Source: Ascidiella aspersa (taxonomy: Eukaryota). From it: a stretch of DNA of 64,000 nucleotides. The position numbers were made by a program, and so were the translations under genes. Shown here in pieces: positions 33,201 through 34,575 of the stretch; position 1 is the first letter of the stretch, and each line of letters begins with the position of its first letter. The DNA is taken from assembly GCA_963924565.1 (NCBI GenBank), contig OZ004612.1, forward strand, positions 23,002,001 through 23,066,000, in the 5' to 3' direction. The notes below the pieces were generated by a model. It was not told where the DNA came from and did no database searches. It saw nothing but the letters and a program-made list of their open reading frames with translations.

Positions 33201-34575
33201 ACGTACTCATGACGTAAGCAATATTCAGCACGAACCGAAGTCAATGTTTGCCTTTCCGCAAACTGTCTTCATCACAGTGACAGCGTATCAAAATCACCAG
33301 GTACAGATAAAGCAACCAATACTGGAATATAGTTGGCACTGTATAAAGACATATTGTATTGAATTCTCAACTAGCTTTCGCACAACCGTGCTTCATCAGG
33401 TCAAAGTGCTACAAAATGTTTACCAAAGTGTTATTCCTCTATTTAGAATTGGATTTACAAAATTTACAAAGATTTGGAATATTGCTAACATTACATATTT
33501 CTTTCAATTTACTTGACAGCTTTAATGGTCTTAACAGGTCGTATATTAACATGATAAAAGGTCGTTAGGTATAGCAGCGATATGCCTCTTGTATGCAGAG
33601 TATTGAGTATTGTGCATAAAACCTGTATAACAACACGTGCTTAATATATTGTGTCATAACTAAAAATCAGATAAGAAATTGAATTTTAACCAAACTGATT
33701 TATCGTTTTCAATTTAGGTTACTAAGCTGAAAATCGAGAACAATCCGTTTGCGCGGGGCTTTCGAAACGACGGAGGAAAGACCAAGAACGCCCAGCTTAT
33801 TCAGTCATGCTTTCCCTTCGATTTTACCGGCAACGGAATGCTCCCCTCTCGCGTTCCGTCGTTCCAGAATCGAGGAGTGAAGCGTTCGAGGGAAACTGAA
33901 CGCGTAGGTGGTTCTCAAATGACAACGCCATCAACCGGTCCGTTGAACGTCCAACCGATCGGTCTCTCCGATTTTCAAACTGCTAGCTTTACATATATGC
34001 AGCAAAATCAAGAGCTGTGTTTACCAGTGGGCGCATACCACTCTGAATACAGACCGGCGCCGGATATTCAAACGTTTCATCGAAAGCACAACGCATACGA
34101 GCAAAACAGACAATTCGATCTGTCACCGAACCACCAAGAGTCAGGTTGCGATTCCAGCACTTTTTCCAATCAAGATTTTCAACCAATCGAAGAAGGTGCT
34201 TCGACGCAGATCAACCACTATAGTGATTTTAATGAGACGGAAACCACCTCAGGCTCAATCTCGCCGGATCCTCTGGTTACATTGAATAACATAAATCAAT
34301 ACGAAGCCAATGCTGTCCAGCCTACGTGGGCATTCACCTACGAACCTTCTGTTTCAATTCCTTACCTCCAAACAACGACCAATCCGTCTCCACCGTGTTC
34401 AAACGATGACGGATATTTTTCAACTTCGTTGAGCAATCCTGACGACGATCTCGCCTTTTTAGAACAATGCACGACCTCTCAGGAGTATCCCAACCTTTCC
34501 GCCACTACCAGTCAAAACTTCATCGACATGTTACTGCCAAAACACGAAAGGAACGTTGATTTCGATTCGTTATAG
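30253..34575 (+). CDS. Tbx6-r: T-box transcription factor, Tbx6-related gene B, 544 aa, 6 exons
   Basis: Exons 30253-30430, 30748-30928, 31475-31583, 32479-32640, 33154-33300, 33718-34575; same 109/162/147-nt T-box exons as the paralogs; [32 protein letters not shown] at 34699 and 34731. Confidence 0.9.
30556..30602 (+). ncRNA. Highly degenerate hammerhead-like remnant in gene B intron 1
   Basis: UGCA CAAAAGA A GAUUUCC CGGAAUA GGUAAUC GAAAC GUU GGCAC: stem II and GAAAC-GUU present, CUGA core mutated; follows a (TA)n tract. Confidence 0.35.
31592..31979. mobile_element. hAT (Ac-like) MITE inserted at the exon 3 splice donor of gene B
   Basis: TIRs CAATGTTG / CAACACTG; TSD GTTCAAAT (31584-31591) / GTACAAAT (31980-31987); many subterminal TGACTT/AAGTCA repeats. 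Confidence 0.75.
33366..33405 (-). ncRNA. Minimal type I hammerhead ribozyme motif with intact core, antisense within gene B intron 5
   Basis: Minus strand UUUGAC CUGAUGA A GCAC GGUU GUGC GAAA GC UA GUUGAG: full CUGAUGA/GAAA core, perfect 4-bp stem II, 6-bp stem I (3 G-U), palindromic AGCU replacing helix III, CUA cleavage triplet. Confidence 0.7.

What the first reader, a model, noticed from the sequence alone, without database searches (positions are those of the whole stretch)
33334..33407. Intact minimal hammerhead ribozyme hidden antisense in a Tbx6 intron
Seen: on the minus strand, stem I 5' UUUGAC, core CUGAUGA, extra A, stem II GCAC-GGUU-GUGC, GAAA, GC, UA, stem I 3' GUUGAG; predicted cut after CUA (between 33372 and 33371). 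No RT or endonuclease sequence is adjacent, and a sister copy sits in the ZP gene. Known: Penelope pLTRs and retrozymes carry type I hammerheads lacking helix III whose palindromic loop permits dimeric cleavage. Inference: a short non-autonomous ribozyme-bearing retroelement family in this tunicate. It could cut antisense transcripts running through gene B, for example from the left-facing orphan promoter at 36381-36490 or read-through from C.
Basis: partly seen in the sequence, partly recalled or inferred. Interest (0 to 1): 0.7.

Follow-up and report, generated by a model that had tools for sequence, protein, structure and literature searches.

The report
Penelope retroelement stub carrying minimal hammerhead
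This is the broken-off end of a jumping gene, one of more than 500 such copies in the genome; it carries a real but already known minimal self-cutting RNA motif, lies backwards in an intron of a T-box gene, and is likely inactive there.

Summary
The motif is there as described (minus strand, 33366-33405), and a strict descriptor finds it in 1 of 300 randomised windows. It is not a separate non-autonomous family. It is the pseudo-LTR hammerhead of an endonuclease-bearing Penelope-like element (PLE). Longer copies run straight into an RT + CX4CxxC + GIY-YIG ORF, and 550 anchored copies exist. The window copy is a 139-bp insertion (33336-33474): a 72-bp hammerhead arm, a 25-bp filler and an inverted tail. 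It is flanked by a target-site duplication of 8 bp here and 13 bp in two other samples. No tandem arrays were found (0 of 60 loci), so it is not a retrozyme. It lies antisense to the pre-mRNA and lacks helix III. Its CUA cleavage triplet is rare in the family (CUU in 63 of 69 copies). Stem II shows no compensatory change, and the ZP-gene sister has a broken core. One RNA run shows no transcript across the locus, but the host gene is also silent there. The scan reported this class before on other DNA of this genome. One lead: 34 of 69 copies end 6-17 nt upstream of the core, and 0 of 47 begin at the cut site.

The parts
33323..33335 (+). Left copy of the target-site duplication (13 bp)
   Evidence: 8-bp exact repeat with 33475-33482 in this assembly; 3 extra letters after 33481 in the X2 contig and in 3 of 3 X6 reads make the right copy a perfect 13-bp match
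33336..33407 (-). 72-bp pseudo-LTR arm of a Penelope-like element, 5'-truncated 8 nt upstream of the hammerhead core
   Evidence: 75 of 84 identical to a young family copy; differs from the family majority at 3 of 72 positions, plus one dimorphic site
33366..33405 (-). Minimal type I hammerhead motif (no helix III); predicted cut 33372/33371
   Evidence: sequence, descriptor scan, folding
33408..33432 (.). 25-bp junction filler with no match to the family reference
   Evidence: gap between the two alignments
33433..33474 (+). Inverted copy of the element's 3' tail (head-to-head layout), degenerate in its distal half
   Evidence: 20 of 22 identical to the family tail on the opposite strand; loose read ends behind 33450 give the family tail
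33475..33482 (+). Right copy of the target-site duplication (8 bp here, 13 bp in X2 and X6)
33301..33717 (+). Host intron of T-box gene B (417 bp; the same intron is 122-172 bp in the five paralogues in the window)
   Evidence: T-box domain in the flanking exons
14758..15075 (.). Older head-to-head sister insertion in an intron of the ZP-domain gene; both arms have a mutated catalytic core
   Evidence: right end read by eye

Best explanation
This is a 139-bp truncated insertion of an endonuclease-bearing Penelope-like retroelement that kept the element's minimal hammerhead and is likely inert in its intron. Shown: family membership, RT-zinc finger-GIY-YIG ORF upstream in long copies, head-to-head layout, target-site duplication, antisense orientation to the host gene. 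Inferred, from PMC11167929 on an anole element: the element's GIY-YIG nicked AT-rich DNA, its RT primed inside the pseudo-LTR/tail of an uncut element RNA, copied only about 72 nt, and was joined to an inverted tail copy. In the parent element the motif would work only as a dimer, through the AGCU palindrome, or with the element's protein. Here it is a monomer on the strand that the host pre-mRNA does not carry, so it would not cut that RNA and is likely decaying neutrally.
For: 550 anchored copies, control 0; DNA read depth about 2190 in the motif bin against about 3-12 in flanking bins. GIY-YIG (PF01541, E 4.5e-8) directly upstream of the motif in L021; a 488-aa ORF with RVT_1 and GIY-YIG in L036. 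Depth staircase from about 2780 at the motif to about 10 at the RT end. Of 60 sampled loci, 29 are inverted, 30 solo and 1 split; none has two same-strand cores. Direct repeats of 10 bp or more flank 18 of 55 measurable loci against 0.7% of 2970 mismatched flank pairs. A second PLE family in the genome has min-HHRs on both sides of an 815-aa ORF (L116). Stem II: 256 unchanged, 10 wobble, 10 broken, 0 compensatory of 276 cells. The window copy is about 2.6-2.8 kcal/mol less stable than a family copy. An intact 13-nt core is expected with P = 0.58 at its divergence. X7 RNA: 167 of 167 laid reads fit only partly, so they come from other copies; depth is zero on the exons and most unique sequence, and there is no pile-up of ends.
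Against: No intact full-length ORF of this family was found (longest 488 aa plus a frameshifted 154 aa; only 88 of 468 candidates were scored), so current mobility is not shown, and many stubs could have been copied from short RNAs. The insertion is present in the samples that span it (X1 in part, X2), and no empty allele appeared among the 15 of 43 joints listed, so it may be fixed. This copy keeps all core nucleotides and has CUA, a permitted triplet. X7 is one sample of unknown tissue, about 6% of the run was read, and gene B is silent in it, so embryonic antisense RNA is untested.
Confidence: 0.87

Rival explanations
1. The short copies form a non-autonomous sub-family (retrozyme-like or SINE-like) that spreads from its own short RNA using the PLE protein in trans.
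For: Short copies far outnumber long ones. 34 of 69 C1 copies share a 5' end within a 12-nt window. A preprint argues that animal retrozymes derive from PLE pseudo-LTRs (10.64898/2026.07.22.740005).
Against: 0 of 60 loci have two same-strand cores, whereas retrozymes are tandem repeats with canonical hammerheads (PMC7229834). Short and long copies share one sequence, lengths form a continuum up to the RT, and junctions and partner arms differ from copy to copy.
Confidence: 0.08
2. The host has co-opted this copy as a ribozyme that cuts antisense RNA running through T-box gene B, pairing in trans with family transcripts or another antisense molecule.
For: Core intact and CUA triplet. A dimer with a 4-bp helix III can be drawn (-14.5 kcal/mol). 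Gene C converges on gene B, and 36383-36489 is about 91% identical to a segment upstream of gene C. Family sequence is present in RNA.
Against: The drawn dimer is 8.5 kcal/mol above the best alternative, and the hammerhead fold has probability 0.018 or less in context. No selection signal. No unique-sequence RNA reads in X7. Published min-HHR dimers and trimers cleave weakly (PMC4209133), and the anole PLE hammerhead needed the element's protein (PMC11167929).
Confidence: 0.03
3. The repeat is a MITE whose terminal inverted repeats resemble a hammerhead by chance.
For: 29 of 60 loci have inverted arms with flanking direct repeats.
Against: Arms are unequal, 30 of 60 loci are solo, and the arm sequence continues into an RT-GIY-YIG ORF. 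Inverted 5' copies, tails and 8-10 bp duplications are described for PLEs (PMC8557442, PMC3846280).
Confidence: 0.01

Closest known systems
Minimal hammerheads (min-HHR) of metazoan PLE pseudo-LTRs (Cervera and De la Pena 2014, PMC4209133)
   Same: Type I; no helix III; bulged base between positions 9 and 10.1; G10.1-C11.1 pair; palindromic 15.2-16.2; mostly single motifs from truncated PLEs, with opposite-strand pairs a short distance apart.
   Different: Helix II is 4 bp here against 7-8 bp in the Schistosoma families. The text I read does not name a tunicate example (its supplements were not seen). This copy has CUA where its family has CUU.
EN+ Penelope-like elements of the Neptune/Nematis type (PMC8557442)
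   Same: RT, then a CX4CxxC linker, then a C-terminal GIY-YIG; strong 5' truncation; inverted 5' copy; optional tail of about 30 bp.
   Different: No intact full-length copy or direct pseudo-LTR pair was found for this family. Nearest proteins are about 50% identical (unnamed records and turtles). The branch is long (0.71) and not nested among turtles in a quick tree. Neptune versus Nematis was not resolved.
Non-LTR retrozymes (PMC7229834; preprint 10.64898/2026.07.22.740005)
   Same: Type I hammerhead in a short dispersed repeat related to PLE pseudo-LTRs.
   Different: No head-to-tail tandem units, no helix III, and the sequence is continuous with a coding element.
Poseidon element of Anolis (PMC11167929)
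   Same: Likely the same insertion chemistry: AT-rich targets, two 3' end classes (with and without tail), and uncut RNA as template.
   Different: Different clade; that ribozyme's cleavage was shown with purified protein, whereas nothing was assayed here.

Membership tests
Minimal type I hammerhead (min-HHR) | Core CUGANGA, GAAA and UH | tested here: met
Minimal type I hammerhead (min-HHR) | Helix II with G10.1-C11.1 and a bulged base after position 9; helix I closing the motif | tested here: met
   4-bp helix II; 6-bp helix I with 3 G-U pairs
Minimal type I hammerhead (min-HHR) | No helix III; palindromic 15.2-16.2 | tested here: met
   AGCU; dimer helix drawable
Minimal type I hammerhead (min-HHR) | Covariation among copies | tested here: inconclusive
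   Within the family, 0 of 276 stem II cells and 1 of 378 stem I cells change on both sides; the sample was anchored on an intact core. Two other PLE families keep the core with different stems (L116, L123).
Minimal type I hammerhead (min-HHR) | Self-cleavage as a dimer or with the element's protein | not testable with these tools
   No pile-up of read ends in X7, but a fragmented cDNA library is poorly suited to show one
Canonical type I hammerhead (Rfam models) | Match to an Rfam hammerhead model; helix III present | tested here: not met
EN+ Penelope-like element | One ORF with RT and C-terminal GIY-YIG upstream of the repeat | tested here: met
   In family copies L021 and L036/L062; absent from the window copy itself
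EN+ Penelope-like element | 5' truncation, inverted 5' copy, optional tail, target-site duplication | tested here: met
EN+ Penelope-like element | Full-length ORF between two direct pseudo-LTRs | tested here: inconclusive
   Not found for this family (88 of 468 candidates scored); found for another family (L116)
Neptune/Nematis-type PLE | CX2-5CxxC linker motif before GIY-YIG | tested here: met
   CX4CxxC present in L036 and in all but 1 of the 41 homologues treed; absent from the 3 outgroup PLEs of this genome
Neptune/Nematis-type PLE | Placement with named reference elements in an RT tree | not tested
   No named references at hand; the tree is the quick version and used 41 of the 120 listed hits
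Non-LTR retrozyme | Head-to-tail tandem repeats, each with a hammerhead | tested here: not met
   0 of 60 loci with two same-strand cores
Non-LTR retrozyme | Expressed as monomeric circular RNA | not testable with these tools
   no suitable library

The most novel reading that the evidence does not exclude
The host has kept this fossil ribozyme, with its rare CUA triplet, as a working cutter of antisense RNA through a developmental T-box gene, activated by pairing in trans with transcripts of the 500-copy family or by the element's protein.
Probability: 0.03. Interest if true: 0.65.

Novelty: new member of a known kind. Interest (0 to 1): 0.14.

Why it matters
As a locus it matters little: dispersed single min-HHRs from truncated PLEs are described by the thousand in animal genomes (PMC4209133). 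The family has one useful feature. On one whole chromosome, 34 of 69 anchored copies (16 of 36 young ones) end 6-17 nt upstream of the core, beside an initiator-like TCATTT (motif name recalled), and 0 of 47 copies begin at the cut site. This fits run-off copying of the 5' end of an uncut transcript. It would explain why PLE hammerheads litter genomes as roughly 90-125 bp stubs, and it gives in-genome support to the in vitro result that cleavage is not needed for insertion (PMC11167929). An AT-rich template-switch hotspot would explain the cluster equally well. Co-option by the host would be notable but has no support.

Tried and rejected
Rfam scans at two thresholds gave no hammerhead; absence is expected for a motif without helix III and is not evidence against it. 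A metagenome scan for related loci found 94 pattern hits and none confirmed, so covariation in other species is untested. No indexed RNA holder was listed; this is not evidence either way. No full-length intact family member was found. No empty insertion site appeared among the 15 of 43 joints shown. The loose ends at 33373 are mismatches between this copy and the family, not cleavage, because they occur in DNA reads too. Recent transfer from turtles was rejected: long branch, not nested, quick tree only. My first 60-locus sample left out 18 of the 69 C1 rows, mostly long copies, and overstated the 5' cluster (14 of 21 young arms); all 69 rows give 16 of 36. The Tbx6 subfamily and the tunicate identity were not tested. 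A promoter function for 36381-36490 was not tested beyond homology. The paper on dimer cleavage of PLE hammerheads (PMC5785218) is not held; I saw only its title in a reference list. Literature searches for a tunicate example and for 5'-end clustering found none in the open library; supplements were not read and may list tunicate motifs.

Full report
Observation. A strict minimal-hammerhead descriptor finds only this site in the window and finds a site in 1 of 300 first-order Markov resamples. Rfam has no match. Stems I and II form in the 43-nt fragment but lose to other folds in context: the probability of the open hammerhead fold is 0.068, 0.018 and 0.0008 with increasing flanks. The site lies in a 417-bp intron of a plus-strand T-box gene, one of six paralogues in the window, whose matching introns are 122-172 bp.

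It is a repeat. A genome search returned 58 matches from 40 of 1523 candidates scored, many as opposite-strand pairs. An anchored pattern counts 550 copies against 0 for the control. DNA reads pile about 300-fold over single-copy depth on the motif.

The repeat is the end of a Penelope-like element. In L021 the motif lies about 180 bp after a GIY-YIG ORF, and an inverted copy closes the 5' side. In L036/L062 the same sequence follows a 488-aa frame with RVT_1, CX4CxxC and GIY-YIG, preceded by a frameshifted 154-aa frame. Read depth along L062 falls from about 2780 at the motif to about 10 at the RT end. The linker motif marks the Neptune/Nematis type (PMC8557442, passages). The protein has 1138 homologues at E up to 1e-30, the best about 50% identical, many from turtles; a quick tree of 41 of them leaves it on a long branch outside the turtle group. 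No intact full-length copy was found among 88 of 468 candidates scored. Another PLE family in the genome has min-HHRs on both sides of an 815-aa ORF, with the same core and different stems; this descriptor found motifs in 3 of the 28 loci scanned in that call.

Anatomy of this copy. It has a 72-bp arm (33336-33407, minus), a 25-bp filler and an inverted tail (33433-33474), 139 bp in all. An 8-bp direct repeat flanks it in the assembly; the X2 contig and 3 of 3 X6 reads carry three more letters that make it a perfect 13-bp duplication. This is typical for the family: 18 of 55 measurable loci have repeats of 10 bp or more, against 0.7% of mismatched flank pairs (5 of 60 loci ran too near the edge and were dropped). 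Of 60 loci, 29 are inverted, 30 solo and 1 split; none has two same-strand cores. Inverted copies, tails and short duplications are described for PLEs (PMC8557442 and PMC3846280, passages).

Is it likely to cut anything? The host pre-mRNA carries the complement, so it is not a substrate. For antisense RNA the motif is a monomer. A single min-HHR showed no cleavage, and dimers and trimers cleaved weakly (PMC4209133, parts 1-2 of 4 read). The anole PLE hammerhead cleaved only with the element's protein, and cleavage was not needed for insertion (PMC11167929, parts 1-2 of 4). The ZP-gene sister has a mutated core in both arms. The window copy differs from the family majority at 3 of 72 positions, including CUU to CUA at the triplet (63 CUU, 4 CUC, 1 CUA, 1 CUG among 69 C1 copies) and a G-C to G-U change in stem I. 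An untouched core is expected by chance, P = 0.58. Stem II shows 0 compensatory changes in 276 cells. In RNA run X7 all 167 laid reads fit only partly, depth is zero over gene B's exons and nearly all unique sequence, and there is no pile-up of ends. Gene B is silent in that sample, so this does not test stages where it is on. The segment at 36383-36489 is about 91% identical to sequence upstream of two paralogues; promoter activity is untested. Against my reading: the core is intact, CUA is a permitted triplet, a dimer can be drawn, and no empty allele was seen.

A mechanistic lead. Among all 69 anchored copies on C1, 34 end 6-17 nt upstream of the core. Among the 36 young ones, 16 do, against 2, 0, 0, 2 and 2 in the next five 12-nt windows. 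An initiator-like TCATTT (name recalled) sits at -16 to -11. Of 47 copies with the downstream 30 nt intact (C1 and the first 19.7 Mb of C2, out of 262 genome-wide), 31 have the anchored core. The other 16 were read directly and none starts at the cut site, although 5 start 3-7 nt before it, where a short chance match cannot be excluded. This fits run-off copying of the 5' end of uncut RNA after internal priming. Drosophila Penelope starts transcription from an internal promoter (PMC2377424, passages). An AT-rich template-switch site is the rival. The step is inferred.

Comparison and novelty. It is a min-HHR by every sequence feature, a PLE remnant by family structure, and not a retrozyme, which is a tandem repeat with a canonical motif (PMC7229834, passages; preprint 10.64898/2026.07.22.740005, part 1 of 5 and passages; PMC6765202, passages). 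Searches found no paper on this motif in a tunicate PLE, but supplements were not read. Three earlier scan notes describe the same class elsewhere in this genome; none was near this site. Verdict: a new member of a known kind, interest 0.14.

Noticed in passing
window about 19820-20700 (minus): Remnant of a second PLE family (matches L116, which lacks the CX4CxxC linker): degraded GIY-YIG, pseudo-LTR with a hammerhead core at 19909-19878, and an inverted tail near 20690. About 12 A-rich bases sit right after the GUC cut site and break stem I.
   Followed up: partly
G000 C1, 69 anchored copies: 5' ends cluster 6-17 nt upstream of the hammerhead core, beside an initiator-like motif; 3' ends fall in two classes (44 at +61 to +90, 17 at +105 or more).
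   Followed up: partly
L192-L207: 5 of 16 copies lacking the anchored core begin at +21 to +25, in or next to the AAGCUU palindrome; possible template-switch site.
   Followed up: no
window 26446-53095: Tandem cluster of six T-box genes with shared intron positions; gene B is the divergent one (62-72% identity in two exons). Segment 36383-36489 repeats sequence found upstream of paralogues.
   Followed up: partly
L114 (G000:C9:23484000-23493500): Head-to-tail array of another PLE with a period of about 2.67 kb and 816-aa ORFs; my descriptor found no hammerhead in it or in L112, L113 and L115, so these may use variant motifs.
   Followed up: no
window 18883-19320 (minus): Weak integrase-core match (E 0.0065), a probable LTR-element remnant.
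   Followed up: no
L062:2264-2600 and 2678-3229: X7 RNA reads on the family's ORF region switch strand bias between segments and carry copy-specific deletions, suggesting read-through of individual truncated copies.
   Followed up: no
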